A stretch of 64,000 nt of DNA, from contig BTQL01000004.1 of NCBI GenBank assembly GCA_036985855.1, positions 6,372 through 70,371 on the forward strand, given 5' to 3'. This stretch comes from Acidimicrobiia bacterium (GTDB taxonomy: Bacteria; Actinomycetota; Acidimicrobiia; Spongiisociales; UBA5794). Under the pieces are notes generated by a model. It did not search any database. It saw nothing but the letters and a program-made list of their open reading frames with translations, and was not told where the DNA came from. Within the stretch, counting starts at the first letter, position 1. Every line of letters begins with the position of its first letter. Positions 30,942 to 50,000 of this stretch are shown here, piece after piece. A program made the translations under genes and the position numbers.

Positions 30942-32746
30942 GCGAGCGCCTCCTCCATGCCCGCCACGAGCAGCCGTGAGAACGTCGAATCCGGGTCGTT
31001 CTCGAGACGGCTCCGCTCTCCCTGTTCGATGACCTTGCCGTCCTCGAGTATCACGATTTCGTCTGCCCGCGCGACCGTCGCGAGCCTATGTGCGATGAGG
31101 ATCGCCGTTCGATTCTCGAGGAGGTGTTCGACCGCTCGATCGATGAGGGCTTCCGTGGCCGGATCAAGCCTCGAGGATGCCTCGTCGAGCACCACGACCC
31201 CTGGGTCGCGCAGGAACACCCTGGTGAACGCAAGAAGCTGTGCCTGACCCGCCGAGAGACCGCTGCTCCCCGACTCGAGCATCGTGTCGAGGCCTGCGGG
31301 AAGGGAATCGAGCCATTCGTCGAGCTCGAGCCTGTGAATGACGTCGCTCAGCTTTTCATCGCTGACAGACCGATCGAAGAACGTCAAGTTGTCGCGTACT
31401 GTTGCACGGAAGAGCTGCACATCTTGGGTGACCATTGCCACTCGATGGCGTAGGTCAGCCATGTTGATGTCCCAGGTCGCAGTCTCGCCGAGGAGCACGG
31501 CACCAGCCTGTGGTTCGTACATCCGGGTGAGCAGTCGAGCGATCGTCGACTTTCCGGATCCGGTGCGCCCGAGCAATCCGACGATACGGCCGGGTGCTAC
31601 ATCGAATGACACATCGTCGAGGATCGTTTCGTTCCCTGCCTCATCGTCGTATCTGAAGGTGACCCGGTCGAACCTCACACGGAGCGGCCCATCTGGGAGC
31701 TCGTGTTCTCTTCGCTGGATCAGGGAGGATTCACGGGCGAGAAGCTCTTCGACTCGCTCGATCGACGCACCGGCCTTCTGCAGATCGATGAGCTCTTCGC
31801 GGATCTGCTCGATTGGCCTATGTGCCATCTCGACATACTGGAATAGGAGGTAGACCGACCCAAGGGTCAGCGTACCGATCCCGAAGAGCCATGCACCGGT
31901 GATCAACACAACAGCGAGCGACACGAAGTACAGCGCCATCGATGCGCTCCACATCACGGCCCAGCCGGTCCATCCTCGGACGATCTGGGGCAGCCACTTA
32001 CGCTGAATGGCGTCGAATCGAGACAACATGAATCCTGTGGCACCGTTGGCCTCGATGTCTTCGGTGCCATCCATCTGCTCTCCGATGAACCCGTACATCT
32101 CAGCACTGGTCGCTCGGATTGTCTTGTGCCAAGGCACGGTGATTCCGTGCAGCCTAAAGAGACCGAGGAACGTGAGGGAAGTGAACACCGTGATGGAGAG
32201 CCCGATGATCCATGACTCCCTCCAAAGAAGGGCCATGATGCCCACCAGCAGCACACCGTTTCCAACGACCTTGATCATCATCGAAGAGAAGAAGTTCGAC
32301 AAAGCCGTTATGTCACCATCGATCCGCTCGATGAGTTCACCAGGACTCGAGCTCTTGTGGAACCCCATGTCGAGGTGGAGCACATGATCTGTGAGGTCTG
32401 CGCGCAATTGATTCGTGGCCGACCACCCGATCTGTTCAGCGAGATAGGTCGACCAGACAGCGAGCAACTGATGCACGATGGCGATCCCCATGAACATGAG
32501 TGCGATGGGGATGAGAGCTGACGTCGGTTCCCCTGATGTCGCTCGATCGATGAACAGCGCTATCAGCTGCGGGTTGACAAGCTGCAGTGCGATCGTCGCG
32601 AGCAGGATGAGACCGAGCAGCATCGCCTTTGAGCGGTGCGGCCGGAGGTATCCGGTGAAGAGTCTGAAGTATGCGCGTACGGGGATCATGGGTGGTCCTT
32701 GAAGGATCGAGGGCGAGCCAGGGGTCACGAACGGCCAAGCCGTCAC
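30938..32746 (-). CDS. ABC exporter, fused permease + ATPase (heterodimer partner A)
   Basis: Same architecture (GRTGSGKST, LSAGQAQ). There is a 4-nt overlap with the downstream partner. Confidence 0.85.
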   Translation of the reverse strand: MTAWPFVTPGSPSILQGPPMIPVRAYFRLFTGYLRPHRSKAMLLGLILLATIALQLVNPQLIALFIDRATSGEPTSALIPIALMFMGIAIVHQLLAVWSTYLAEQIGWSATNQLRADLTDHVLHLDMGFHKSSSPGELIERIDGDITALSNFFSSMMIKVVGNGVLLVGIMALLWRESWIIGLSITVFTSLTFLGLFRLHGITVPWHKTIRATSAEMYGFIGEQMDGTEDIEANGATGFMLSRFDAIQRKWLPQIVRGWTGWAVMWSASMALYFVSLAVVLITGAWLFGIGTLTLGSVYLLFQYVEMAHRPIEQIREELIDLQKAGASIERVEELLARESSLIQRREHELPDGPLRVRFDRVTFRYDDEAGNETILDDVSFDVAPGRIVGLLGRTGSGKSTIARLLTRMYEPQAGAVLLGETATWDINMADLRHRVAMVTQDVQLFRATVRDNLTFFDRSVSDEKLSDVIHRLELDEWLDSLPAGLDTMLESGSSGLSAGQAQLLAFTRVFLRDPGVVVLDEASSRLDPATEALIDRAVEHLLENRTAILIAHRLATVARADEIVILEDGKVIEQGERSRLENDPDSTFSRLLVAGMEEALA

Positions 32747-32963
32747 CTTGGTGGGTCTCGAGAGTGGGGAGAAGGCTGGTGTTACAGAGCTCTCTGGCGC
32801 GCGAGAGCCGGTGATGATGGATTTGGCACTTGCTGCCTTCTCATCGACCCTCCTTGATCGCTAACCCGGTCCCCAAAGACCGGTTGGCGCCATGCTCGCG
32901 GAGGGTCAACCAGATGTCAAGCTTGGACACGCATCAGCTGTCGGGGAAGAGGCAGTCGCGGCG

Positions 32964-33776
32964 TTAGGAGAGCAGGTGTACGACGATCAGCGAGCCGATC
33001 ATCGCGACGGAGTTCGTGCCGATGTGGGCGAGCACCGCGGCATAGGTGCTGTTCGCGTAGAGGCGGATCCAGAGGAACCCGAGACCAGCGATGAATGTTC
33101 CGGCAATGGCTCCAGTGAGGGCGATCACGAGGCCGATTGCACCCATGAAGAGGTCACCACCAGGATTCGTGTCGAGCGTGTCCAGCGTTGGGAGAATGTG
33201 CCAGAGACCGAACAGTACCGAGGTCATGAGCCCGGCGATCAGGGGTGATCGGCGCCGTATGAGCATCCCGAATACGATGCCCCTGAATAGCACCTCTTCA
33301 TAGAGTGCGGTCGCGAGCGGAACGCGAACGAACGCTTGGAACAGAACCCAGCCGACCGAGTTATCGATGATACGGTCGTCTCTGAACAGTTCACGTGTGG
33401 CCGGAATAGCGATACCAATCGCGACTCCAACCGCGATGATTCCGATCACGATGGTGCCAACCGAGACGCCCTGTTTCGCGCGGTCGGTCCGCAGGCCCAT
33501 CGTCGTCCATGTGGTCCCTGCCCTGCGCGCAACGAGGAGAGCTACGCCGAGGATCCCCAGGTTGAATGGAATGTGCCAAACATCGTCGAGGATCTCGTTG
33601 GTGACGATGTTTGCGTATCCGGCAAGTGCAAGGATTGCGAGAAGATGGAAGATGTGCGTGTCATGCGGCCGGGGCGGCTTGTTGAGCCAGAAGGATGGAC
33701 GCCACATCTGCTCCCAGTCGGCCAGTGGCCAGGACCAAGCCTGTTCGTGTCCGGTCGCTCTGAGATCCTTGCCCAT
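32964..33776 (-). CDS. CPBP-family (CAAX/Abi) intramembrane metalloprotease
   Basis: Motifs EEVLFRG.. and FGLWH. The track ORF N-terminus (to 33899) is a translation of repeat copy 1; the real start is M at about 33776. Confidence 0.75.
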   Translation of the reverse strand: MGKDLRATGHEQAWSWPLADWEQMWRPSFWLNKPPRPHDTHIFHLLAILALAGYANIVTNEILDDVWHIPFNLGILGVALLVARRAGTTWTTMGLRTDRAKQGVSVGTIVIGIIAVGVAIGIAIPATRELFRDDRIIDNSVGWVLFQAFVRVPLATALYEEVLFRGIVFGMLIRRRSPLIAGLMTSVLFGLWHILPTLDTLDTNPGGDLFMGAIGLVIALTGAIAGTFIAGLGFLWIRLYANSTYAAVLAHIGTNSVAMIGSLIVVHLLS

Positions 33777-33818
33777 TCGACCAGAGTACCGAACACGGAG
33801 CCCACACCGAGACTTGTG

Positions 33819-33868
33819 TACCCAGGGTTCGAGACCGCAGTGAGTCCGGTCTACAGCCCAGAGAACGG
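33819..33868 (-). repeat. Structured interspersed repeat, copy 1 (forms a near-perfect 50-bp inverted repeat with copy 2)
   Basis: Reverse complement = CCGTTCTCTGGGCTGTAGACCGGACTCACTGCGGTCTCGAACCCTGGGTAC. It matches copy 2 at 49 of 50 positions. Internal hairpin AGACCG-n9-CGGTCT. Confidence 0.85.
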
Positions 33869-33930
33869 ATGAGTCGTTGTTCCGTGGTGCCATCGGCACG
33901 GGCCTATGGTTTGGGGTCTACGCTTAACCC

Positions 33931-34509
33931 GTGCCCATCTTGCATGGATTCAAGCAGACGGTGCTCGACCTCGGTCGGGGCGAAGCCAAGACCAAGGCGC
34001 GTCCACTCACTGTTGACGACGAGACACTCGACCGGTCCGCGGCTGGTCTTGATCGCAGAGATTCCGAACGTGCGGTCCTGTTCTGGTTGCTGTCTGACCG
34101 AGCTCTATTCTATGTCGTTGGCTGTGATCCGGTCGATCACACGTACCGAATCCCATACGAGGCGTTCGCAGAAATCAGCCTCGATTATGACGAGAACGAG
34201 GAGTTCCTGCCCTGGTACACGCGGATTTCGATCTCCCCGATCGGTGCCGGGGCGATCACCCGACTTGAGCCAGGAGCGATTCCGGGACAGCCACTCGGCG
34301 TCCTGCCGCCCGTGCCCGTAGACGGTGCTGAGAGGGCCCGTTTGGCCCGAGGTGAGGCCGTACCGCTCGCTGGCTTCGGAACTTGTCCCAAGCGATTCCG
34401 AAGCGCTCTGGAACGGCGGATGGAATTGGCAGGTGTTCCACTTTCGGTCACCGGTGCCGAAGCGGCCGAGCGCAAGAGTCGTGCTGTGAGACGCAAGGTC
34501 TCCGGCTAG
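33931..34509 (+). CDS. Hypothetical protein (192 aa), no recognisable domain
   Basis: It is the only ORF between inverted repeat copies 1 and 2. Coding-like GC3 bias. No motif recognised. Confidence 0.4.
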   Translation: MPILHGFKQTVLDLGRGEAKTKARPLTVDDETLDRSAAGLDRRDSERAVLFWLLSDRALFYVVGCDPVDHTYRIPYEAFAEISLDYDENEEFLPWYTRISISPIGAGAITRLEPGAIPGQPLGVLPPVPVDGAERARLARGEAVPLAGFGTCPKRFRSALERRMELAGVPLSVTGAEAAERKSRAVRRKVSG

Positions 34510-34535
34510 GGGAGCGTTGCGCCCTGCGCGCGAAT

Positions 34536-34585
34536 CCATTCTCTGGGCTGTAGACCGGACTCACTGCGGTCTCGAACCCTGGGTA
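34536..34585 (+). repeat. Structured interspersed repeat, copy 2
   Basis: CCATTCTCTGGGCTGTAGACCGGACTCACTGCGGTCTCGAACCCTGGGTAC. It lies 27 nt after the 33931..34509 stop and 17 nt after the stop of the minus-strand gene 34602..35246. Confidence 0.85.
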
Positions 34586-34601
34586 CGCGGTCGTGGATCG
34601 A

Positions 34602-35246
34602 CTACTCGAGCTTTTCGATGTTGTGGCTACCGCAATCCCGGCACCGCATGGGAGCGTGCTCTTCGGCGGTACCGACCCGCAGACTTGTGCCGCAGGCCTT
34701 GCAGAAGTTCGCGTTGCGGTAGTGAGTGGTACCGCACGATGGGCAATCTGCCCAGTCGGTGGTCGTTGCGTCGATGCCACGATCGTCCGATTCGGGCGCG
34801 TCGCCCGGAGGAGGAGGTGTGTACGACCAGAAGCTCTCTTCGTTGTCCACGGTCGCCGGTGCGAAGGGCGGATCCGGTTCGGTTTCTGGTGAGATCGATC
34901 TTGCATGGGTGGTCTCGGGTATGGCGCGTCCATGCGGATCGAGCGTGAAGAGAGCAATGCCCTGGGTTTCGGCGATCGAGAGCGCTCCTGGCGAGAATCC
35001 GGATGGCGAGAAAAGCAGGAGTTTCTTGCCGGCTTCCGCTGCGCGCAACAAGGCGAGTACCGAAGACTGCTCCACTGGTCCGTCGCTGGACCTGACTCGA
35101 ACGAACGCCTTCTCTGTGTGGAGTTCAACGGATCCGTGGGCAGGCTCCGTGATGTCCACCGGCGGATCCCCCGCGTGGTCGAGCCACAGGAATGTCGCTT
35201 GATAGGCCTCGTCGAGTGATAGCTGACTGTGTTTCGGGATGCCCAT
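34602..35246 (-). CDS. Restriction-endonuclease-fold (Mrr-cat/PD-(D/E)xK-like) protein with C-terminal double zinc ribbon
   Basis: The N-terminal ~110 aa follow the Mrr_cat pattern (GDPPVD...VELHTEKAFVRVRSSDGPVEQSSV..LLLFSPSGFSPGALSIAE). A Pro-rich linker follows, then CPSCG..CKACG and CRDCG cysteine pairs. Confidence 0.55.
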   Translation of the reverse strand: MGIPKHSQLSLDEAYQATFLWLDHAGDPPVDITEPAHGSVELHTEKAFVRVRSSDGPVEQSSVLALLRAAEAGKKLLLFSPSGFSPGALSIAETQGIALFTLDPHGRAIPETTHARSISPETEPDPPFAPATVDNEESFWSYTPPPPGDAPESDDRGIDATTTDWADCPSCGTTHYRNANFCKACGTSLRVGTAEEHAPMRCRDCGSHNIEKLE

Positions 35247-35259
35247 ACGTGAATGAAGC

Positions 35260-36159
35260 TTACCCGACGGGCCACCCTCGCTCGAAGGCGATCGAGTGGT
35301 GCCAGTCGGCGAGAAGAGTTCGGAGTGCCGCGACGAATGCCAAGGGTTGGTCGAGCGTCAGATGGTGATGAGCCTCGGGTATCTCGATGACAGGCGAGAC
35401 CCGTCCCATGAGCTCGTACATGTATGCGGCTGTGTCGGGTGGTACGACAACAGACTTTTCACCCGTGAACAGAGCGACTCGGCACTTCACGGACGCCAGC
35501 TGATCACGGAGGGTGTCATGCGTCCGCTCGAAGATATTCGGATCGAATTTCCAGGTCCACCCTTCGTCGGTCTCGTGCACCGACATCCGGGCTATGTAGT
35601 CGATGATGTAATCGTTCTCACATGGCTGGCGCGGCACCAGCGCGAAGTGAGACACCGCCTGTTCCAGAGTTGCATATGTGCCGGGCGTTCTGAAAACGTG
35701 ACTTGATCGGCTTTCCTCGGATTCTGGAGCGGGCTGGCTGACGGGCGCATCAACGATGACGGCCCCTTTCAGTCTCCCTCCGAACGTCGCTGCTGTTTGA
35801 ATCGTGACCATGCCCCCGAGGCTGTGTCCGACGACTACTGGGGGTCCTGGGAACTCGGCGTCTTCTGCTACGGCCATGACCTCGCGGGCCCACACCTCGT
35901 GAGAATATGAATCGCGTCTGTCTGAGTCGCCCATGCCAGAGAGGTGGATCGCAACGGCGTGCCACTCGCTCACGAAGAGCGGCGCGATGAACGACCACCA
36001 GTGGGCGTGCGCCGCACCACCGTGCACGAACACGAGTCCGGGATTCTTCCGGTCGCCCCACGACAGATATCGGATGGTGGCGCCCTCAACGATGACTGCC
36101 CGGTCCTCCGGCTCGTGCGAAATCGCAGTATCGAACCACGTCGGAGCCAAGCTACTCAC
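35260..36159 (-). CDS. Alpha/beta-hydrolase fold protein
   Basis: HGG motif (VFVHGGAAHAH) and the nucleophile elbow GHSLGG. It lies 13 nt upstream of the REase-like gene on the same strand. Confidence 0.75.
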   Translation of the reverse strand: MSSLAPTWFDTAISHEPEDRAVIVEGATIRYLSWGDRKNPGLVFVHGGAAHAHWWSFIAPLFVSEWHAVAIHLSGMGDSDRRDSYSHEVWAREVMAVAEDAEFPGPPVVVGHSLGGMVTIQTAATFGGRLKGAVIVDAPVSQPAPESEESRSSHVFRTPGTYATLEQAVSHFALVPRQPCENDYIIDYIARMSVHETDEGWTWKFDPNIFERTHDTLRDQLASVKCRVALFTGEKSVVVPPDTAAYMYELMGRVSPVIEIPEAHHHLTLDQPLAFVAALRTLLADWHHSIAFERGWPVG

Positions 36160-37855
36160 CGGTCCGCACTTCCTCGGACAGCACGAACCATCTCAGATCC
36201 TCGAATGATGCGGTTGCTTCCACAGGCGGTTGCGCGGGCCCCATCTTCGGGTCGATCGACTCGAACAGAGTTCGCGCCTCTTCGAGATACCGGGCGAGCT
36301 CGGTTTCGGGAGCGTGAGCCGGGCAGGCCTCGTACCGCATCGTGCCGTCGCTGTAGTCGACATTGACCAAGGAGAACGGTGGATCACCTCGCCCATCCAC
36401 GTGCACCCACTCGGCGGTGTGTGTGTCGAACTGATACCACGGAAGCAGCTTCCAACCGTGCGTAGCCACGAGGTTGACGGCTTCGGTGATGAAGTCGAAG
36501 ACAGTCTCTGAGATGAAGTAGTTGAAACTGACCCGAACCCAACCGGGCTTGATCCCCTCACAGCCGAGTCCGACTTCGTGGCTGATCTCGGCGGAGTGCT
36601 CGTCGTCGATTCCCAGCAGCGAGTGACCATAGGGACCGGCACACGAACAGCCACCTCTTGACTGGATTCCGAACAGATCATTGAGGACGGCAACGATGAA
36701 GTTGTGATGGAGATACTGTCCCTTGTGCTTGACAACGAACGACACGATCGAGAGGCGATCAGCGTCAGGATTGCCGAGGATTTCGATTGCCGGATTCTGG
36801 CTCCAAGACGAAATCGCTCTCTTGATGAAGCCCTCTTCGAGGACTCGGATACGCGATGGACCCACCGCTTCCTTGAGTTGGAAGACGAGTCCAGCTCGAA
36901 TCGAACCGACAATCGCCGGTGTGCCACCCTCCTCCCGATGCTCGACGTCTGCTATGTACTCGTGCGAATCGATGCGAACGAATGAAACGGTGCCCCCTCC
37001 GGGTACCGCAGGCACCGCATTCCTGAACAGTTCCTTGCGAGCGACGAGCAATCCGGGTGTGCTCGGACCACCGATCAGCTTGTGGATCGAGATGAAGACA
37101 GCGTCCTTGTATGCCTCTGGTGCATCTCGTGGTTGCACGTCCATCGAAACGTATGGAGCCGCTGCTGCGAAGTCCCAGAACGATAATGCTCCATATCGGT
37201 GGAGTAGGGCAGCGATTCCCTCCGTGTCGGACAGGATCCCTGTGACGTTCGATGCCGCCGAGAACGAACCGATCTTCACCGATCGGTCCCGATACTTGAT
37301 GAGTTCTCGTTCGAGTTGCGCTTTGTCGATGAGGCCGTCGCTGTCCTCGCCGATCTTGACGACATCGGCGATCGACTCGCGCCATGGAAGCTCATTCGAG
37401 TGGTGTTCGAACGGTCCGATGAATACGACGGGCCGCTCATCGGGCGGTATCGCGTCGGAGAGCTGGAACTGTGAGTCGAGCGTGTCCGGTATCGATAGGC
37501 CAAGAACACGGATCATCCGGTCGATCGCACCCGTGCAGCCGCTACCAACGAATATGACGGCGTATTCGTCCGAGGCGTTGAGGCAACGCCGAATTATCTC
37601 ACGCGCATCCTCGCGGAACCCGGACGTCTGGAGTCCGGTTCCTGAGGCCTCTGTGTGGGTATTCGCGTAGAGGGGGAGGACGACATCTCTGATGTAGTCC
37701 TCGATGAAAGTCAGCGATCTTCCTGAAGCGGTGTAGTCGGCATAGGTCACACGACGAGGCCCGTACGGTCCGGACACGACATTGTCCCCCCCGATTACAG
37801 ACGCCCGTACGGTTTCGATGATGTCCATGAGTGGAGGGTAGACGGTAGACAGCAA
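36152..37855 (-). CDS. Class-V aminotransferase-fold PLP enzyme (cysteine desulfurase-like) with C-terminal extension
   Basis: PLP-lysine region 'ISIHKLIGGPSTPGLLV' and a NifS/IscS-like fold. At 567 aa it is longer than canonical desulfurases. Confidence 0.75.
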   Translation of the reverse strand: MLSTVYPPLMDIIETVRASVIGGDNVVSGPYGPRRVTYADYTASGRSLTFIEDYIRDVVLPLYANTHTEASGTGLQTSGFREDAREIIRRCLNASDEYAVIFVGSGCTGAIDRMIRVLGLSIPDTLDSQFQLSDAIPPDERPVVFIGPFEHHSNELPWRESIADVVKIGEDSDGLIDKAQLERELIKYRDRSVKIGSFSAASNVTGILSDTEGIAALLHRYGALSFWDFAAAAPYVSMDVQPRDAPEAYKDAVFISIHKLIGGPSTPGLLVARKELFRNAVPAVPGGGTVSFVRIDSHEYIADVEHREEGGTPAIVGSIRAGLVFQLKEAVGPSRIRVLEEGFIKRAISSWSQNPAIEILGNPDADRLSIVSFVVKHKGQYLHHNFIVAVLNDLFGIQSRGGCSCAGPYGHSLLGIDDEHSAEISHEVGLGCEGIKPGWVRVSFNYFISETVFDFITEAVNLVATHGWKLLPWYQFDTHTAEWVHVDGRGDPPFSLVNVDYSDGTMRYEACPAHAPETELARYLEEARTLFESIDPKMGPAQPPVEATASFEDLRWFVLSEEVRTGE

Positions 37856-41673: not shown

Positions 41674-44600
41674 TTACTGAGCATCTCTCAGCTCCCTTGG
41701 TTTGCGAGCGATGAAGTATTTCGCCTGCGGGTGGTGGCAGATGATCGCCGATGTCGTCTGCTCGGGTTGGTACTGGAATCCGGTTTCTGGTCCGACATGG
41801 ATTCCGACGCGGTCCGCTCCGAGAAGGTCTGCAACGGTGAGATTGTCCTCAAGATCCGGACAAGCCGGGTATCCCCATGAGTATCGGCCGCCGCGGTAGC
41901 GCTGTCGGAAGAGACCCCTGATAGTCGGGTCGTCCTCGTTCGCGATTCCAAGCTCCTCGCGCACTCGGGCGTGCCAATACTCAGCAAGAGCTTCAGTCAT
42001 CTCGACCCCGAGACCGTGGAGCTTCAGATATTCTTCGTACCGATCCTCCGAAAAGAGCTGAGCAGTTCGCTGGGAAACTGCAGTTCCCATCGTCACGATG
42101 TGGAATGCTGCGACATCAGTGAGGTCTGCGTCGACCGGACGGAAATAGTCTGCGATGCAAAGCCATGGTGGGCCAGGTTGCCTCGGGAATCGGAACCGTA
42201 CAAGTTCCTGTGTCCGAGTCTGGTCTGCCCACACGATGAGCTCGTTGCCGTGGCCGTTCACGGGGAAGTAGCCATACACAACCTGCGGCTGAAGGAGGTC
42301 CTCGGCGCGTGCCGCAGTGATTGCACGCCGCAGCTCAGGAGCGAGACGTTCCTTGAATTGCGCGTCCGTCTCTCCGTGTTCAGGGCGATAATGCCATTGG
42401 TTGCGGAGCAGTGCCGTCGTGTTGAGATACCCGGCGATCTCGTCGAGTTCGATGCCTTTCACGATACGCGATCCGTAGAACGGAGGATCAGGGATCGGTT
42501 TGTCAGCAGATACCTCCGGAGACCGATCGGGTGCGACTCCATGATCCGTTTCCTTACGATCGATCTTTGGAAGTTCGCGCCTCGGGGACTTTGGTTCGTC
42601 GCGTCTACCAGCTATCCACTCCATTGCATCGAGACCGGCAAAGGCATCCTTGCCATAGATCACGGGACCGGGGTGTCGCCGGGCAAGGTCATCTTCAACG
42701 TAGCTTCGCGTCAGCGCGGCACCGCCGAGGAGAACAGGCACGTCATCGTGACCTCTTCGGGAGAGTTCATCGAGGTTGTCCCGCATCACGAGCGTGCTCT
42801 TCACCAGGAGCCCGCTCATTCCGATCGCATCGGCTTCGTGCTTCTCGAGCGCTTCGATCATTTCAGTGATGGACACCTTGATTCCGAGGTTGTGCACCCG
42901 GTATCCGTTGTTCGTGAGGATGATGTCCACGAGGTTCTTTCCGATGTCGTGGACGTCCCCGGATACCGTTGCAATAACGATGCTGCCGCGGTCAGCGGTG
43001 TCGACGTGGTCGAGGTGTGGCTCGAGGTACCGCACCGATGTTTTCATCGTTTGTGCAGAACGCAGGACGAAAGGGAGCTGCATTTCGCCGGCACCGAATA
43101 GCTCGCCGACGGTTTTCATACCCGCAAGGAGTACATCGTTGATGATCGAGAGCGCAGTCGTTTCTTCAAGTGCTTTGTCGAGGTCGTCTTCGAGACCGAT
43201 CGCGTTCCCTGCAACGATTCGCTTCTCCAGACGTTCGATGAGCGTCAGACCCTCGAATGGGTCTTTTGCCTTTTCGGCGTCTGTCACTGTTTCAAATGCC
43301 TCGAGAAGCACTTCAAGGGGGTCGTATCCTTCTGCCCTGCGGTCATAGACCAGGTCGGTGCATGCTTTGAGATGCTCTTCCTCGATCGCTGAAAGGGGTG
43401 TGATCTTGCCCGCGTGGATGATCGCTGCGTCGAGTCCAGCTTCAAGGCATTCGTAGAGGAAGACGGAGTTGAGCACTCGCCTAGCCGCTGGTCTGAGGCC
43501 GAAGGAGATGTTCGACACCCCGAGCACAGTGCTCACGCCTGGGAGTTCCGATTTGATTCGCTTGATCGCCTGGATCGTTTCCATCCCGTCGCGTCTGAGG
43601 TCGTCGTCACCCGTCGAGAGAGGAAACGTGAGGGGATCGAAGATGAGGTCTTCGGCCCTGAGCCCGTAACGCTCGGTCGCGATCCCATAGAGACGATGGG
43701 CAACTTCCATCTTCCACTCGACGTCGCGTGCCTGACCCCGCTCGTCGATGAGGAGACATATCACGGCCGCCCCGTGTTCCTTTGCGAGAGTGAGCACTCT
43801 GTCAAGGCGAGATCCTGTCTCGTCGCCCGATTCGAGGTTGGCCGAGTTGAGGACACACCTTCCTCCGAGTTGCTCGAGCGCTGCTTGCATGACCTCTGGT
43901 TCGGTTGAGTCGATGACAACCGGTGCAGCGACATCTGTCGAGAATCGTTGGGCGATCGGTGTTATGTCTGCAGCACCGTTTCTTCCCACGTAGTCGACAC
44001 ACAGGTCGACCAGGTGCCCCCCCTCTGCGACCTGATTCTCCGCAATGCCGACACACGCGTCGATGTCTCCATCGAGCATCGCCTCCCTGAAGGCCTTTGA
44101 CCCGTTCGCATTGGTCCGTTCGCCGATGATGAGAAACGACGTGTCCTGGTGAAGCGACACCGCTGAGTAGGTCGAGGTGACTGCGGGTATTGCGGAAGGA
44201 TTCCTCTCGGCTGGCGCCCTGTGACCGACTGCATCGATAAGCGTTGCGATGTATTCGGGCGTCGTGCCACAGCAGCCTCCGACGACACTCACACCGTACT
44301 CCTCGACGAATGTGGTGAGATGTTTGGCGACATCCGACGCACCGACGTCATAGTGCATCTCACCGTTGACGACGGACGGCAGGCCAGCGTTCGGTATCAC
44401 CGATATCGGCACCGTCGCGTGGCGTGACAGCACCCGAATCGGTTCGTACATCTCGACGGGTCCGGTCGCGCAGTTGATGCCGATCACATCTGTGCCGAGT
44501 GCTTCGATCGCAGCGAGTGCGGCACCGATCTCGGTGCCCGGCAACATGCGTCCGGTCAACTCGATTGTCACCTGGGTCTGCAGCGGCACGTCGCGTCCCG

Positions 44601-45129
44601 ATGACCGCATGGCGCGGCGGGCACCGTTGATGGCTGCCTTGACAGAGAGGAGGTCGAACTGCGTCTCGATGATGAGCAGGTCTACTCCTCCGTCGATGAG
44701 GCCTGCGGACTCGATCTCGTATTGGCCGCGCAGGTCCGCGTACGCGATTTGGCCGAGAGTCGGAAGCTTCGTCCCAGGGCCGATGGAACCTGCGACGAAT
44801 CGGTCGTCGAATTCGTCTGCGACATGCCTCGCGATCGTGGCACCAGCGGCAGCGAGCTCGTACGCCCTGTCGGCGAGGTCATATTCGCCGAGCGGTACCC
44901 CGAAGGCACCGAAGGTGTTCGTCTCGATGACATCTGAGCCGACGTCCAGGTAGGCGCGGTGCAGGGACTCGATCACGTCAGGACGGGTGATGTTGAGGAT
45001 CTCGTTGCAGCCTTCGAGGTCGGGACCACCGAAATCCTCGTCGGTGAGGTCCTGTGCTTGGAGCCATGTACCTGTTGCGCCGTCGAAGACGACAACACGC
45101 TGTGAAAGGGTGTCGATGTAGTCGGTCAT
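41674..45129 (-). CDS. metH: Cobalamin-dependent methionine synthase
   Basis: 1151 aa with Hcy-binding, pterin-binding, B12-binding (DxHxxG...) and AdoMet activation domains, all collinear. Confidence 0.95.
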   Translation of the reverse strand: MTDYIDTLSQRVVVFDGATGTWLQAQDLTDEDFGGPDLEGCNEILNITRPDVIESLHRAYLDVGSDVIETNTFGAFGVPLGEYDLADRAYELAAAGATIARHVADEFDDRFVAGSIGPGTKLPTLGQIAYADLRGQYEIESAGLIDGGVDLLIIETQFDLLSVKAAINGARRAMRSSGRDVPLQTQVTIELTGRMLPGTEIGAALAAIEALGTDVIGINCATGPVEMYEPIRVLSRHATVPISVIPNAGLPSVVNGEMHYDVGASDVAKHLTTFVEEYGVSVVGGCCGTTPEYIATLIDAVGHRAPAERNPSAIPAVTSTYSAVSLHQDTSFLIIGERTNANGSKAFREAMLDGDIDACVGIAENQVAEGGHLVDLCVDYVGRNGAADITPIAQRFSTDVAAPVVIDSTEPEVMQAALEQLGGRCVLNSANLESGDETGSRLDRVLTLAKEHGAAVICLLIDERGQARDVEWKMEVAHRLYGIATERYGLRAEDLIFDPLTFPLSTGDDDLRRDGMETIQAIKRIKSELPGVSTVLGVSNISFGLRPAARRVLNSVFLYECLEAGLDAAIIHAGKITPLSAIEEEHLKACTDLVYDRRAEGYDPLEVLLEAFETVTDAEKAKDPFEGLTLIERLEKRIVAGNAIGLEDDLDKALEETTALSIINDVLLAGMKTVGELFGAGEMQLPFVLRSAQTMKTSVRYLEPHLDHVDTADRGSIVIATVSGDVHDIGKNLVDIILTNNGYRVHNLGIKVSITEMIEALEKHEADAIGMSGLLVKSTLVMRDNLDELSRRGHDDVPVLLGGAALTRSYVEDDLARRHPGPVIYGKDAFAGLDAMEWIAGRRDEPKSPRRELPKIDRKETDHGVAPDRSPEVSADKPIPDPPFYGSRIVKGIELDEIAGYLNTTALLRNQWHYRPEHGETDAQFKERLAPELRRAITAARAEDLLQPQVVYGYFPVNGHGNELIVWADQTRTQELVRFRFPRQPGPPWLCIADYFRPVDADLTDVAAFHIVTMGTAVSQRTAQLFSEDRYEEYLKLHGLGVEMTEALAEYWHARVREELGIANEDDPTIRGLFRQRYRGGRYSWGYPACPDLEDNLTVADLLGADRVGIHVGPETGFQYQPEQTTSAIICHHPQAKYFIARKPRELRDAQ

Positions 45130-45231: not shown

Positions 45232-45320
45232 GACATCTCATCGATCAGGCATTGGCACCGAACAGATCGGTTGCCGCGGCTTCACAGGGCCTGTCCCTCC
45301 ACCGCTCTGGATGAGCGCTT
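45232..45320 (-). promoter_or_regulatory. SAM-I (S-box) riboswitch in the metH 5' leader
   Basis: Transcribed strand: CUCAUCCAGAGCGGUGGAGGGACAGGCCCUGUGAAGCCGCGGCAACCGAUCUGUUCGGUGCCAAUGCCUGAUCGAUGAG. It has P1 (CUCAUC/GAUGAG), the GGAGGGA kink-turn, the GGCCC..GCAACC element of P3 and the GGUGCCAAU element of P4. A CGAGCGG-UGAC-CCGCUCG hairpin follows. It lies about 100 nt upstream of the metH ATG. Confidence 0.85.
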
Positions 45321-48790: not shown

Positions 48791-48846
48791 CCGTTCTGTG
48801 GGCCGTGGACCGCACTCACTCCGGTCCAGAACCCTGGGTTGAGTAC
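48791..48846 (+). repeat. Structured interspersed repeat, copy 3
   Basis: CCGTTCTGTGGGCCGTGGACCGCACTCACTCCGGTCCAGAACCCTGGGTTGAGTAC. The stem carries compensatory changes relative to copy 2 (GGACCG/CGGTCC vs AGACCG/CGGTCT). Confidence 0.8.
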
Positions 48847-48871: not shown

Positions 48872-49963
48872 ATGCGGTTTGCCATGGTGATTGCGGTGCT
48901 GGCTCTCGTCGCCGGCGCGTGCACCGGGTCAGGTTCCCAACCCGTCCCCACCTCTGTGCCGGATGCATCTACGACGCTCGGCACGTCGACGACCTCTAGG
49001 CTGTCGGACACGACCTCGACATCCCAGGCTGCAACTACGACGGTTGAACCGTCCGTTGCGACCGACAAGGCGCCTGAGGTGTTCCAATACGCTGTGGTCG
49101 CCGAGAAGGAAGCTCGCAGACTCGCGGTCATTGATCCGAATGGGGCGTGCGCCGACAATGGCAACGGCTGTGATCTGACTCCGGTTCGAACCGTGGATCT
49201 GTCCGAACGACCGCACAACCTCACCAGCATCGGTTCGGTTGTGTACGCGACTCACCCGGACGCACGGTCGATGTCCCGGATTGACATCGTCACCGGCGAT
49301 GTTCTGACGGTAGCGATCGGGCGCGAACCTCACGATGTCAAATATGACCCAATGTCCGGCGCGATGGTCGTGGCGGATGAGGCCGGACGATCTCTCCTCA
49401 CCGTCGATCCGGAAACCTTGGCTGTCATCGACACACTTGATCTTCCGGGCGAACCCCACGATCTCGCCATCGGCGATGGTGTCATCTGGGTCACTCTCAT
49501 GCGTCGCAGCGAACTCGTCAGAGTCACCGGCGATACAGTCGAGTTGTTGCCAGCCGGTGGCTCACCGCACGATCTCATCGTGGATCTGGACGGGTCTATC
49601 TGGTACTCCAACTGGGGCTCGAAACGTCTCAATATCTTCGATCCTGCCTCCGGAGTCACACCGGAGGCGCCCGTCGGCGTTGGTGAGCCCCAGCACTTCG
49701 CCGTTTCCCCCGAAGGGGCGGTCTGGATATCTGACATCGCCGGTGACGCGATTGTTGGGTTCACTTCGGAGCAATCGGTGACGGTAGACGTCGGACCCTC
49801 CCCGCACCACCTGGCGTTCGTGGGCGACACGATCGTGGTCGCAGTCAGCGGCTCCGGTGAAGCCGTGTTCGTGAGAAACGGACAGGTTGTTGCGAGATCG
49901 CAACTCACCCCCGGCCTGCACGGGGTCGCAGTCGTCGAGCTGACGCAGTTCTCTGGGCCCTAG
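48872..49963 (+). CDS. Secreted lipoprotein with predicted beta-propeller (YVTN/NHL-like repeats)
   Basis: Lipobox LVAGAC, a Thr/Ser-rich linker and repeated 'PH(D/H)L..(D/G)' strand motifs. It is bracketed by repeat copies 3 and 4, and its TAG stop lies inside copy 4. Confidence 0.6.
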   Translation: MRFAMVIAVLALVAGACTGSGSQPVPTSVPDASTTLGTSTTSRLSDTTSTSQAATTTVEPSVATDKAPEVFQYAVVAEKEARRLAVIDPNGACADNGNGCDLTPVRTVDLSERPHNLTSIGSVVYATHPDARSMSRIDIVTGDVLTVAIGREPHDVKYDPMSGAMVVADEAGRSLLTVDPETLAVIDTLDLPGEPHDLAIGDGVIWVTLMRRSELVRVTGDTVELLPAGGSPHDLIVDLDGSIWYSNWGSKRLNIFDPASGVTPEAPVGVGEPQHFAVSPEGAVWISDIAGDAIVGFTSEQSVTVDVGPSPHHLAFVGDTIVVAVSGSGEAVFVRNGQVVARSQLTPGLHGVAVVELTQFSGP

Positions 49964-50000
49964 ACCGGACTCAGTGCGGTCCAGAACCCTGGGTTTGCGG
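49946..50000 (+). repeat. Structured interspersed repeat, copy 4
   Basis: GCAGTTCTCTGGGCCCTAGACCGGACTCAGTGCGGTCCAGAACCCTGGGTT. It sits between convergent genes (lipoprotein stop and nrdJ stop). Confidence 0.8.

What the first reader, a model, noticed from the sequence alone, without database searches (positions are those of the whole stretch)
33819..34585. Near-perfect 50-bp inverted repeat pair bracketing a single unknown ORF
Copies 1 and 2 of the repeat are 49/50 identical and in opposite orientation, about 670 bp apart. They enclose exactly one 192-aa ORF with no recognisable domain. This geometry is what is seen for MITE-like mobile cassettes or invertible DNA segments. No recombinase or transposase gene is nearby. 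The flanking genes are a CPBP (Abi-like) protease and a restriction-endonuclease-fold protein, a context reminiscent of defence islets.
Basis: seen in the sequence. Interest (0 to 1): 0.65.

Follow-up and report, generated by a model that had tools for sequence, protein, structure and literature searches.

The report
Dispersed palindromic repeats flanking a core gene
The two near-identical inverted 53-base repeats are copies of a widespread short intergenic repeat family of Acidimicrobiia that landed on either side of an ordinary, vertically inherited gene; the gene is not mobile cargo, but in related genomes the same repeats always bracket a DNA-binding nuclease gene, which suggests an undescribed counterpart of the REP/RAYT systems.

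Summary
The arms at 33818-33870 and 34534-34586 are 52/53 complementary and enclose one 192-aa ORF.

The cassette or invertible-segment reading is not supported.
- ORF192 is a conserved Acidimicrobiia gene with more than 200 homologues and a weak PH-like fold.
- It sits in the same neighbourhood (ABC, ABC, CPBP, ORF192, Mrr/Zn-ribbon, hydrolase) in relatives that carry no repeat, one repeat, or upstream tandem arrays.
- No recombinase or transposase lies between 19.7 and 50 kb.

The repeat belongs to a large family with consensus gcgWACCCAGGGTTC, then a 24-25 nt variable, covarying hairpin, then rGCCCAcAGAAyg.
- 130 of 136 copies are intergenic. They occur in both orientations, usually close to stop codons.
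- They often form tandem arrays or tail-to-tail doublets.

The new result concerns a ~300-aa gene encoding an AbiEi-like wHTH fused to a Vsr/EDxHD-like nuclease (DUF559/MTES_1575). In 7 of 7 loci fetched by protein homology alone, and in 3 more loci, this gene is bracketed by an inverted pair of that genome's own repeat subtype, in the same -> <- geometry as around ORF192. This parallels REP/RAYT with a different enzyme. The mobilising role of the nuclease is inferred, not shown.

The parts
33818..33870 (+). Repeat copy 1, in element (+) orientation: GTACCCAGGGTTC, hairpin, GCCCAGAGAACGGAT. It lies in the divergent spacer between the CPBP gene and ORF192. Its palindromic end faces outward.
   Evidence: nhmmer with the family HMM, E=6e-14
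34534..34586 (-). Repeat copy 2, in element (-) orientation, 52/53 identical to copy 1. It lies in the convergent spacer between ORF192 and the Mrr-like/Zn-ribbon gene. Its palindromic end faces outward.
   Evidence: E=9e-15. The orthologous spacer is 38-48 bp without an element in L005-L007 and L141-L145.
33931..34509 (+). ORF192, a conserved Acidimicrobiia protein of unknown function. It has an N-terminal helix, a PH-like beta-sandwich and a small alpha/beta C-terminal part. It is a resident core gene, not cargo.
   Evidence: 205 homologues at E<=1e-3, the best 120 at 64-100% identity. Conserved synteny. No Pfam hit. AF2 pLDDT 72, with only weak PH-domain fold matches.
32964..33776 (-). Rce1-like/CPBP intramembrane protease, the left neighbour. 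The true start is ATG 33776; the longest-ORF call to 33899 runs through repeat copy 1.
   Evidence: Pfam PF02517, 1.1e-15. Orthologues are 269-270 aa.
34602..35246 (-). 214-aa protein with a weak Mrr_cat-like N-terminus and a C-terminal double zinc ribbon, the right neighbour. It is syntenic in all relatives.
   Evidence: Pfam DZR 3.8e-6; Mrr_cat 5e-4, which is below Pfam's cut-off. Synteny.
48791..48839 (-). Repeat copy 4 (about 86% identical to copy 1), in the divergent spacer between the SBP_bac_5 gene and the 363-aa lipoprotein gene.
49948..49994 (-). Repeat copy 3 (about 89% identical to copy 1), in the convergent spacer between the 363-aa gene and class II ribonucleotide reductase. It supplies the last codons and the stop codon of gene 48872-49963.

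Best explanation
The two arms are independent copies of a short (about 55 nt) dispersed intergenic repeat family of Acidimicrobiia. Each element has four parts:
- a conserved outer end containing the 13-bp palindrome GAACCC(A/T)GGGTTC;
- a 24-25 nt variable segment that forms a hairpin together with GGGTT and rGCCC;
- a conserved inner end, GCCCAcAGAAyg;
- a weakly conserved YYGCG lead-in.

The copies sit in the two spacers flanking a vertically inherited core gene (ORF192), so the gene was not brought in by them.

In the closest relatives the upstream spacer is an insertion hotspot. The downstream copy is specific to this lineage and is almost identical to the upstream one. It is therefore most likely a recent local inverted copy of it, or the two were homogenised by gene conversion.

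The family behaves like REP/REPIN or MITE-type non-autonomous DNA. In related genomes its putative cognate gene encodes an AbiEi-like winged-helix DNA binder fused to a Vsr/EDxHD-like nuclease, and that gene is always bracketed by the same -> <- inverted pair.

Shown: the family, its distribution, the synteny, and the bracketing of the nuclease gene.
Inferred: that the nuclease binds, cuts or spreads the elements, and that copy 2 derives from copy 1.
For: The inverted repeat and the extra copies are.

Family breadth:
- The strict pattern finds 5 copies in 4 contigs of one related MAG, mostly at contig ends.
- 129 distinct copies align in 71 columns. Conservation extends beyond the searched letters: YYGCGW on the 5' side, and R at column 53, C/G at 59 and YGG at 64-66.

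Hairpin covariation: 77.7% of cells are paired against 65.2% in shuffles and at most 43% in slid controls. There are 266 double-sided changes against 130 in shuffles.

Placement:
- 130 of 136 copies are intergenic. Both orientations occur (tandem-sense 34, tandem-antisense 20, convergent 31, divergent 18).
- In tandem and convergent spacers the median distance to the adjacent stop codon is 11-22 nt.
- Occupancy of neighbouring spacers falls with distance: 7.8%, 5.7%, 2.0%, 3.1% and 0% at offsets 1-5.
- Same-spacer inverted doublets are -> <- 21 times and <- -> once.

ORF192 is resident:
- 205 homologues were found at E<=1e-3.
- Synteny is identical in L005-L010 and L141-L145.
- Repeats are absent from both spacers in L005-L007, L009 and L010.
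- L008 has only a downstream copy, of another subtype.
- L141-L145 have only upstream tandem arrays of 2-4 copies, with a 38-bp element-free downstream spacer.

Nuclease association:
- The AbiEi_4 plus DUF559/MTES_1575 gene is bracketed in L003, L029 and L075/L114.
- It is bracketed in 7 of 7 independent loci fetched by protein homology only: L131, L132, L135, L137, L139, L140 and L148.
- The hairpin subtype matches between the two arms of a locus but differs between genomes.
- The protein model has pLDDT 89.6. Its N-terminal part matches the AbiEi antitoxin 6y8q (E 5.7e-6). Its C-terminal part matches the homing endonuclease I-Bth0305I, 3r3p (TM 0.79), and DUF559 3hrl.
- Acidic and His residues are invariant in the motif RRFDVAF...IEWDSRRWH.
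Against: - No target-site duplication or clean filled/empty pair was found, because the closest relatives are only about 90% identical in protein and their spacers do not align.
- The per-genome copy number is unknown; only 64 kb of this genome is available.
- No AbiEi-DUF559 gene lies in the window, so its presence in this genome is inferred from a relative. MAG CAZWMX01 has the nuclease unit (L003), the same repeat subtype (L001-L004), and a 90%-identical ORF192 (L143).
- The nuclease gene sits in conserved synteny over 60-100% identity. It is therefore not itself visibly jumping, and its flanking repeats could simply be its operator and terminator.
- Hairpin stability is unremarkable (z -0.2 to -2.5).
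- The metagenome loci were selected with a pattern that fixes the conserved ends, so their invariance there is partly by construction.
Confidence: 0.8

Rival explanations
1. Mobile cassette or composite element: the two arms are terminal inverted repeats of one roughly 770-bp unit that carries ORF192 as cargo.
For: The 53-bp near-perfect inverted repeats enclose exactly one ORF. The same -> <- geometry encloses the nuclease gene elsewhere.
Against: ORF192 orthologues sit at the identical chromosomal position with 0 or 1 flanking repeat sites occupied. No ORF192 copy was seen in another context. No target-site duplication was found. Each arm also exists as a solo element.
Confidence: 0.04
2. 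Invertible (phase-variable) segment: recombination between the arms flips ORF192 relative to an outside promoter.
For: Inverted repeats of 53 bp are long enough for RecA-dependent inversion, and the arms are nearly identical.
Against: No recombinase lies between 19.7 and 50 kb. The orientation is the same in all six orthologue groups examined. The arms belong to a family with more than 100 unrelated sites. An ORF with its own upstream spacer inside the segment would gain nothing obvious from flipping.
Confidence: 0.05
3. RNA-level or host-function element: the repeats act as 3'-UTR hairpins (terminator, mRNA stabiliser or translation-coupled regulator), or as binding sites for a host DNA-binding protein, and are kept for that function rather than spread as selfish DNA. 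In this locus an ORF192 transcript containing both arms could form a 53-bp 5'-3' panhandle.
For: The copies lie a median 11-22 nt from stop codons and are enriched in convergent spacers (30% against a 16% background). The hairpin covaries. The invariant T-G pair at the stem base favours one strand. E. coli REPs have documented 3'-UTR effects, according to the papers listed.
Against: No T-tract or terminator-like site was found at either arm. Stability is weak. Both orientations occur in tandem spacers, 34 against 20. 17% of copies lie in divergent (promoter) spacers, including copies 1 and 4 of the window. Tandem arrays, chimeras and strain-variable copy number look like proliferation, not function. 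No Rfam family matches.
Confidence: 0.11

Closest known systems
REP / REPIN elements with their RAYT (REP-associated tyrosine transposase) genes
   Same: Both are short extragenic imperfect palindromes, multi-copy and mostly just downstream of genes. Both occur singly, in tandem and as inverted doublets. Both have a cognate protein gene, inherited in conserved synteny, that is flanked by two repeats in inverted orientation, and the repeat subtype co-varies with the gene between genomes (the REP/RAYT literature is listed).
   Different: The cognate protein is not an HUH/Y1 (IS200/IS605-type) transposase. It is an AbiEi-like wHTH plus a Vsr/EDxHD-like PD-(D/E)XK-type nuclease. There is no GTAG or CGTC tag. 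The element is longer (about 55 nt) and has two conserved non-stem ends flanking a variable hairpin. The host is Acidimicrobiia.
MITEs derived from insertion sequences
   Same: Both are small non-coding repeats that share their ends with a longer protein-coding unit. Presence and absence vary between lineages, and copies cluster locally.
   Different: A single element has no terminal inverted repeats of its own. No target-site duplication was seen. The coding unit's protein belongs to no known transposase family, and the coding unit itself looks stationary over 60-100% protein identity.
EDxHD / Vsr-like homing endonucleases (I-Bth0305I) and DUF559 proteins
   Same: The C-terminal domain of the associated protein matches 3r3p (TM 0.79, rmsd 2.9) and 3hrl. 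A profile hit to 3r3p has E=0.019. Vsr acts at CTWGG/CCWGG (PMC3384342), and the element's palindrome centre is CCWGG.
   Different: The gene is free-standing and chromosomal, with no intron or intein. It is fused to an AbiEi-type DNA-binding module and is associated with a dispersed repeat family rather than a single homing site. The CCWGG link is only a resemblance.
AbiEi antitoxin (type IV TA / Abi system)
   Same: The N-terminal approximately 200 aa match 6y8q (E 5.7e-6), and Pfam gives a weak AbiEi_4 hit. From my own knowledge, AbiEi proteins bind inverted repeats in their own promoter.
   Different: No AbiEii nucleotidyltransferase toxin gene is adjacent. A nuclease domain is fused instead.

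Membership tests
REP/RAYT system | Short extragenic imperfect palindromes present in many copies | tested here: met
   130 of 136 copies are intergenic. There are 4 copies in 64 kb and more than 120 metagenome loci. The hairpin covaries. The per-genome count could not be measured.
REP/RAYT system | Conserved GTAG (or CGTC) tetranucleotide tag at the foot of the palindrome | tested here: not met
   The conserved ends are gcgWACCCAGGGTTC and GCCCAcAGAAyg. The corresponding position in the window copies reads GTAG, CTAG or GTGG.
REP/RAYT system | Cognate gene flanked by repeats in inverted orientation | tested here: met
   All 10 independent AbiEi-DUF559 loci are bracketed -> <-.
REP/RAYT system | Cognate gene encodes an HUH Y1 (IS200/IS605-like) transposase | tested here: not met
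   Pfam gives MTES_1575, DUF559 and AbiEi_4 only. Fold matches are AbiEi and I-Bth0305I.
MITE / composite transposon (the arm-ORF-arm unit) | Unit moves as a whole: same unit at other sites, and an empty site lacking the whole unit in relatives | tested here: not met
   Relatives keep ORF192 at the same site without the arms.
MITE / composite transposon (the arm-ORF-arm unit) | Target-site duplication flanking the terminal inverted repeats | tested here: not met
   The outer flanks ...GAGACTTGT and GCGGTCGTG... share no direct repeat.
Invertible DNA switch | Site-specific recombinase encoded nearby | tested here: not met
   Genes from 19.7 to 50 kb are all housekeeping by Pfam or by synteny annotation.
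Invertible DNA switch | Both orientations present in a population | not testable with these tools
   No reads are available. Across the six orthologue groups examined only one orientation is seen.
Intrinsic terminator | GC-rich stem followed by a T-tract | tested here: not met
   No terminator-like site at either arm. Fold z-scores for the two arms are -0.2 to -0.5.
Known RNA families (Rfam 15) | Match to a curated covariance model | tested here: not met
   The only hit in the window is the SAM riboswitch elsewhere. Nothing meaningful at E<=10 in 33700-34700.
EDxHD/Vsr-like nuclease (for the associated protein, not in the window) | Vsr-like nuclease fold with conserved acidic and His catalytic residues | tested here: met
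   3r3p TM 0.79 and 3hrl TM 0.70. Profile E=0.019. Invariant E220, D232, E243 and H250, plus D245 at 90% or more. I did not map these residues onto the published active site.

The most novel reading that the evidence does not exclude
The repeats belong to a previously undescribed REP/REPIN-like system in Acidimicrobiia whose partner enzyme is an AbiEi-type winged-helix protein fused to a Vsr/EDxHD-like nuclease, instead of a RAYT tyrosine transposase. In this reading the protein recognises the GAACCC(A/T)GGGTTC palindrome and is responsible for maintaining or spreading the elements. The ORF192 bracket would then be a 'pseudo-unit' that mimics the nuclease gene's own -> <- flanks.
Probability: 0.4. 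Interest if true: 0.75.

Novelty: new variant of a known kind. Interest (0 to 1): 0.5.

Why it matters
The window's inverted pair itself is ordinary: two small repeats around a housekeeping gene. Annotators should avoid calling it a cassette, and should avoid extending the CPBP ORF through the repeat.

The family behind it is more interesting.
- It is abundant in uncultured Acidimicrobiia from sediments and hydrothermal samples.
- It has strongly conserved ends across subfamilies whose hairpins are otherwise unrelated.
- It is consistently paired with a DNA-binding nuclease gene of a family (DUF559/MTES_1575 with an AbiEi domain) that is very common in Actinobacteria and has no assigned role.

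If the nuclease really services these repeats, that would give DUF559/AbiEi fusion proteins a function. It would also show that REP-type 'domesticated replicator' systems evolved more than once, with unrelated enzymes. Practically, these repeats break metagenome assemblies: many copies sit at contig ends.

Tried and rejected
- tRNA fragment or att site: GGTTCGAGACC resembles a T-arm, but ARAGORN finds no tRNA in the window and other subfamilies lack the resemblance.
- Known RNA motif: no Rfam hit.
- Integron attC or CRISPR: tandem copies have a 59-61 nt period, but the 'spacers' are themselves repeated and the copies are scattered. Rejected by inspection.
- Literature search by sequence string, and for DUF559, MTES_1575, RAYT and Acidimicrobiia repeats: nothing describes this family.
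- Recurrent cargo between bracket pairs: apart from the nuclease gene, the bracketed genes are unrelated housekeeping genes such as TrpD, cysteine synthase, RpiB and an SBP.
- Alternative upstream hairpin (5' flank pairing with the 5' arm around the palindrome): only weak support beyond the constant palindrome (66.5% against 62.8%).
- Two distinct arm types (GCCCGCGGAA against GCCCACAGAA) as fixed left and right ends of the nuclease unit: rejected, because orthologous arms in L075 and L140 carry swapped types.
- IMG/VR scan: its two hits are not family members.
- The window's own contig could not be retrieved, and afdb50 was unavailable for fold search.
- PDB sequence search with the single nuclease protein gave nothing; only the profile reached 3r3p.

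Full report
**1. Observation**

The window has 60% G+C. The repeat finder on 32000-36500 returns one strong inverted pair. Its arms are 33818-33870 and 34534-34586, 53 nt long, 98% complementary and 663 nt apart. Direct comparison gives 52/53 identity, and similarity stops abruptly at both ends. The 43-nt core occurs twice in the window and never in 100 shuffles.

Exactly one sizeable ORF with good codon statistics lies between the arms: 33931-34509 on the + strand, 192 aa. On the left is an Rce1-like/CPBP protease. On the right is a 214-aa protein with a weak Mrr_cat match and a double zinc ribbon.

**2. The repeat is not private to this locus**

A relaxed search and blastn-short find two more copies, at 49948-49994 (-) and 48791-48839 (-). 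They are 86-89% identical to copy 1. An HMM of the family finds just these four in the 64 kb.
- Copies 4 and 3 also flank a single gene, 48872-49963, but as a direct pair.
- Copy 3 supplies that gene's stop codon.
- Copies 1 and 4 lie in divergent (promoter-side) spacers. Copies 2 and 3 lie in convergent spacers.

**3. ORF192 is a resident core gene**

The protein has 205 homologues at E<=1e-3. The best 120 are 64-100% identical, almost all are 190-200 aa long, and all are from Acidimicrobiia or Actinomycetota MAGs and metagenomes. The 100% hit names the source as MAG BMS9Abin12.

I fetched contigs for orthologues at 90, 89, 83 and 69% identity. All show the same gene order: ABC, ABC, CPBP(-), ORF192(+), Zn-ribbon protein(-), alpha/beta hydrolase, aminotransferase V, MGMT-like protein, sigma-70.

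Repeat content at the two spacers varies between these relatives:
- L005-L007, L009 and L010 have none on either side.
- L008 has a copy of a different subtype, downstream only.
- L141-L145 (90% identity) have two to four tandem (+) copies of two subtypes plus a chimeric copy in the upstream spacer. The number varies between contigs. Their downstream spacer is 38 bp and element-free.

ORF192 therefore predates the repeats at this site. The upstream spacer is an insertion hotspot. The downstream copy in the window is lineage-specific. Because it matches the upstream copy 52/53 but matches the window's other copies at only 86-89%, I infer that it is a recent local inverted copy of the upstream one, or that the two were homogenised by gene conversion.

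ORF192 has the same orientation relative to its neighbours in every relative, so nothing suggests inversion.

The AF2 model of ORF192 (pLDDT 72) has an N-terminal helix, a seven-stranded sandwich and a small alpha/beta tail. Foldseek against the PDB gives only weak PH-like matches (hSac2, CARMIL, SSRP1, Vps36, Sin1), none at E<=1e-3. It is not a recombinase, transposase or nuclease.

Pfam on the genes between 19.7 and 50 kb finds only housekeeping functions. These include a proteasome activator, PAC2, FHA, CBS, ABC-3, cyclophilin, a DEAD helicase, HAD, acyl-CoA dehydrogenase, FKBP, MGMT, a sigma factor, LMW-PTP, EamA and an SBP. This is not a defence island.

**4. The repeat family**

The strict pattern found five copies on four contigs of one related MAG (CAZWMX01), mostly at contig ends. 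One inverted pair there brackets a 302-aa ORF.

From these, 129 distinct copies align without trouble in 71 columns.

Conservation extends beyond the letters the search fixed. On the 5' side the consensus is Y-Y-G-C-G-W. There is an R before GCCC, a C/G at the variable position of CCCAnAGAA, and Y-G-G after it. That gives an element of about 55 nt, which matches the 53-nt identity in the window.

The central 24-25 nt differ completely between subfamilies but keep their length and their pairing. For the helix GGGTTC+N8 / N8+rGCCC:
- 77.7% of cells pair, against 65.2% in shuffles and at most 43% in slid controls;
- there are 266 double-sided changes, against 130 expected.

A second, upstream helix around the palindrome GCGAACCC-A-GGGTTCGC has only weak support. 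Thermodynamically the hairpins are unremarkable, with z-scores from -0.2 to -2.5. Neither arm has a T-tract terminator. Rfam has no matching family.

**5. Where the elements sit**

I used a simple codon-usage gene caller that I trained on the loci themselves and checked on the window.
- 130 of 136 copies are intergenic.
- Of the 103 copies that could be classified, 34 are sense and 20 antisense in tandem spacers, 31 lie in convergent spacers and 18 in divergent spacers. The background is 66% tandem, 16% convergent and 18% divergent.
- In tandem and convergent spacers the median distance to the adjacent stop codon is 11-22 nt.
- Elements cluster. Neighbouring-spacer occupancy falls from 7.8% at offset 1 to 0-3% at offsets 3-5.
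- Within one spacer there are 17 tandem pairs (period about 60 nt) and 22 inverted doublets. Of the doublets, 21 are tail-to-tail (-> <-) and one is head-to-head. Across genes, -> <- outnumbers <- -> by 10 to 3.

Apart from the nuclease gene described next, the genes bracketed by pairs are unrelated housekeeping genes. The family is essentially absent from IMG/VR.

**6. The associated nuclease gene**

The 302-aa ORF bracketed in L003 carries weak AbiEi_4 and DUF559/MTES_1575 domains. tblastn found homologues in three more element-fetched loci (L029, L075, L114). Each is bracketed by an inverted pair once diverged copies are included.

As an unbiased test I fetched loci by protein homology alone, at 74, 65, 60, 54, 52, 51 and 50% identity. 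All seven independent loci (L131, L132, L135, L137, L139, L140, L148) show a (+) element 40-90 nt upstream and a (-) element just downstream of the gene, with the palindromic ends facing outward.

Further properties of these loci:
- The hairpin subtype differs between genomes but matches between the two arms, and it matches solo copies on the same contigs.
- The gene occupies at least five different neighbourhoods. One of them (TilS, Zincin_2, gene, zf-HC2, sigma) is conserved from 60 to 100% identity. This is behaviour like a vertically inherited, domesticated gene.
- The AF2 model has pLDDT 89.6. Its N-terminal two-thirds match the AbiEi antitoxin (6y8q, E 5.7e-6). Its C-terminal domain matches the Vsr-like EDxHD homing endonuclease I-Bth0305I (3r3p, TM 0.79) and the DUF559 structure 3hrl. 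A sequence profile also reaches 3r3p at E 0.019.
- Acidic and His residues in RRFDVAF...IEWDSRRWH are invariant across 38-40 homologues.
- Vsr acts at CTWGG/CCWGG (PMC3384342). The element's palindrome centre is CCWGG. That is a resemblance only.

No homologue lies in the window. However, the MAG that shares the window's repeat subtype and has a 90%-identical ORF192 (L143) does encode one (L003).

**7. Interpretation**

Shown:
- The inverted repeat is real.
- It consists of two members of a large intergenic repeat family.
- ORF192 is a resident gene.
- The family always brackets an AbiEi-Vsr-like nuclease gene.

Inferred:
- The downstream arm arose by a recent local inverted copy.
- The nuclease binds, nicks or spreads the elements, by analogy with REP/RAYT.

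The closest known system is REP/REPIN-RAYT (papers listed). Two defining features of that system fail here: there is no GTAG/CGTC tag, and the partner is not an HUH transposase. So this works like a REP system but is not a member of that family. MITE, cassette, invertible-switch and terminator readings each fail at least one tested defining feature.

**8. Verdict**

The specific finding is ordinary and its cassette/switch interpretation is not supported. The repeat family and its nuclease partner appear undescribed in the literature I could search and deserve follow-up.

Limits of this analysis:
- Only 64 kb of the genome was available, and there were no reads.
- No strain-level filled/empty pairs were found.
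- The element ends were fixed by the search pattern in the metagenome set.
- The gene caller was home-made.

Noticed in passing
window 45235-45317 (-): A SAM riboswitch (RF00162, 69.8 bits) lies upstream of the 1151-aa gene 41674-45129 (-). I did not identify the gene.
   Followed up: no
window 49948-49994 and gene 48872-49963: The last five codons and the stop codon (QFSGP*) of the 363-aa lipoprotein-like gene lie inside repeat copy 3, so the element has replaced the gene's original 3' end. Together with copy 4 (48791-48839), this gene is bracketed by a direct pair.
   Followed up: partly
window 33777-33899: The longest-ORF call for the CPBP gene (GTG at 33899, 311 aa) reads through repeat copy 1. 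Orthologues are 269-270 aa, so the true start is ATG 33776. Translating through the element in one frame gives 'NPGF', which appears in several spurious ORFs in the loci.
   Followed up: yes
L005 3860-4000, L008 3838-4000, L010 3886-4000: The CPBP-ORF192 spacers of relatives that lack the element carry different short tandem heptamers: GTTCACA x3; GTAGTAC x3-4; CCGATGA x4 and GACGTCT x3. Their meaning is unknown.
   Followed up: no
L141 1263-1500, L142 1-219, L145 860-1151: Strain-level variation exists in the spacer orthologous to the window's copy 1. There are 2-4 tandem elements of two subtypes and one chimeric element that starts as one subtype and ends as the other.
   Followed up: partly
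L016 11465-11605, L011 5998-6136, L039 5741-5882 and about 18 others: These are tail-to-tail inverted doublets 20-30 nt apart (21, against 1 head-to-head). They resemble REPINs and have the same geometry as the flanks of the nuclease gene. The two arms of a doublet often differ, one ending GCCCGCGGAA and the other GCCCACAGAA.
   Followed up: partly
L148 1364-1560: In this locus the AbiEi-DUF559 unit lies immediately next to what looks by eye like a tRNA gene. I did not run ARAGORN on this locus.
   Followed up: no
L029 4918-5788: The AbiEi-DUF559 gene here is split into three tblastn pieces, probably a frameshifted pseudogene, yet it is still bracketed by the inverted pair. The left arm's palindrome centre reads CCCTGGG instead of CCCAGGG.
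   Followed up: no
L001-L004 (MAG CAZWMX01) and many hits: Element copies often sit within about 100 nt of contig ends, and many nuclease homologues are on contigs of 1-2 kb. This is consistent with the repeats breaking short-read assemblies.
   Followed up: no
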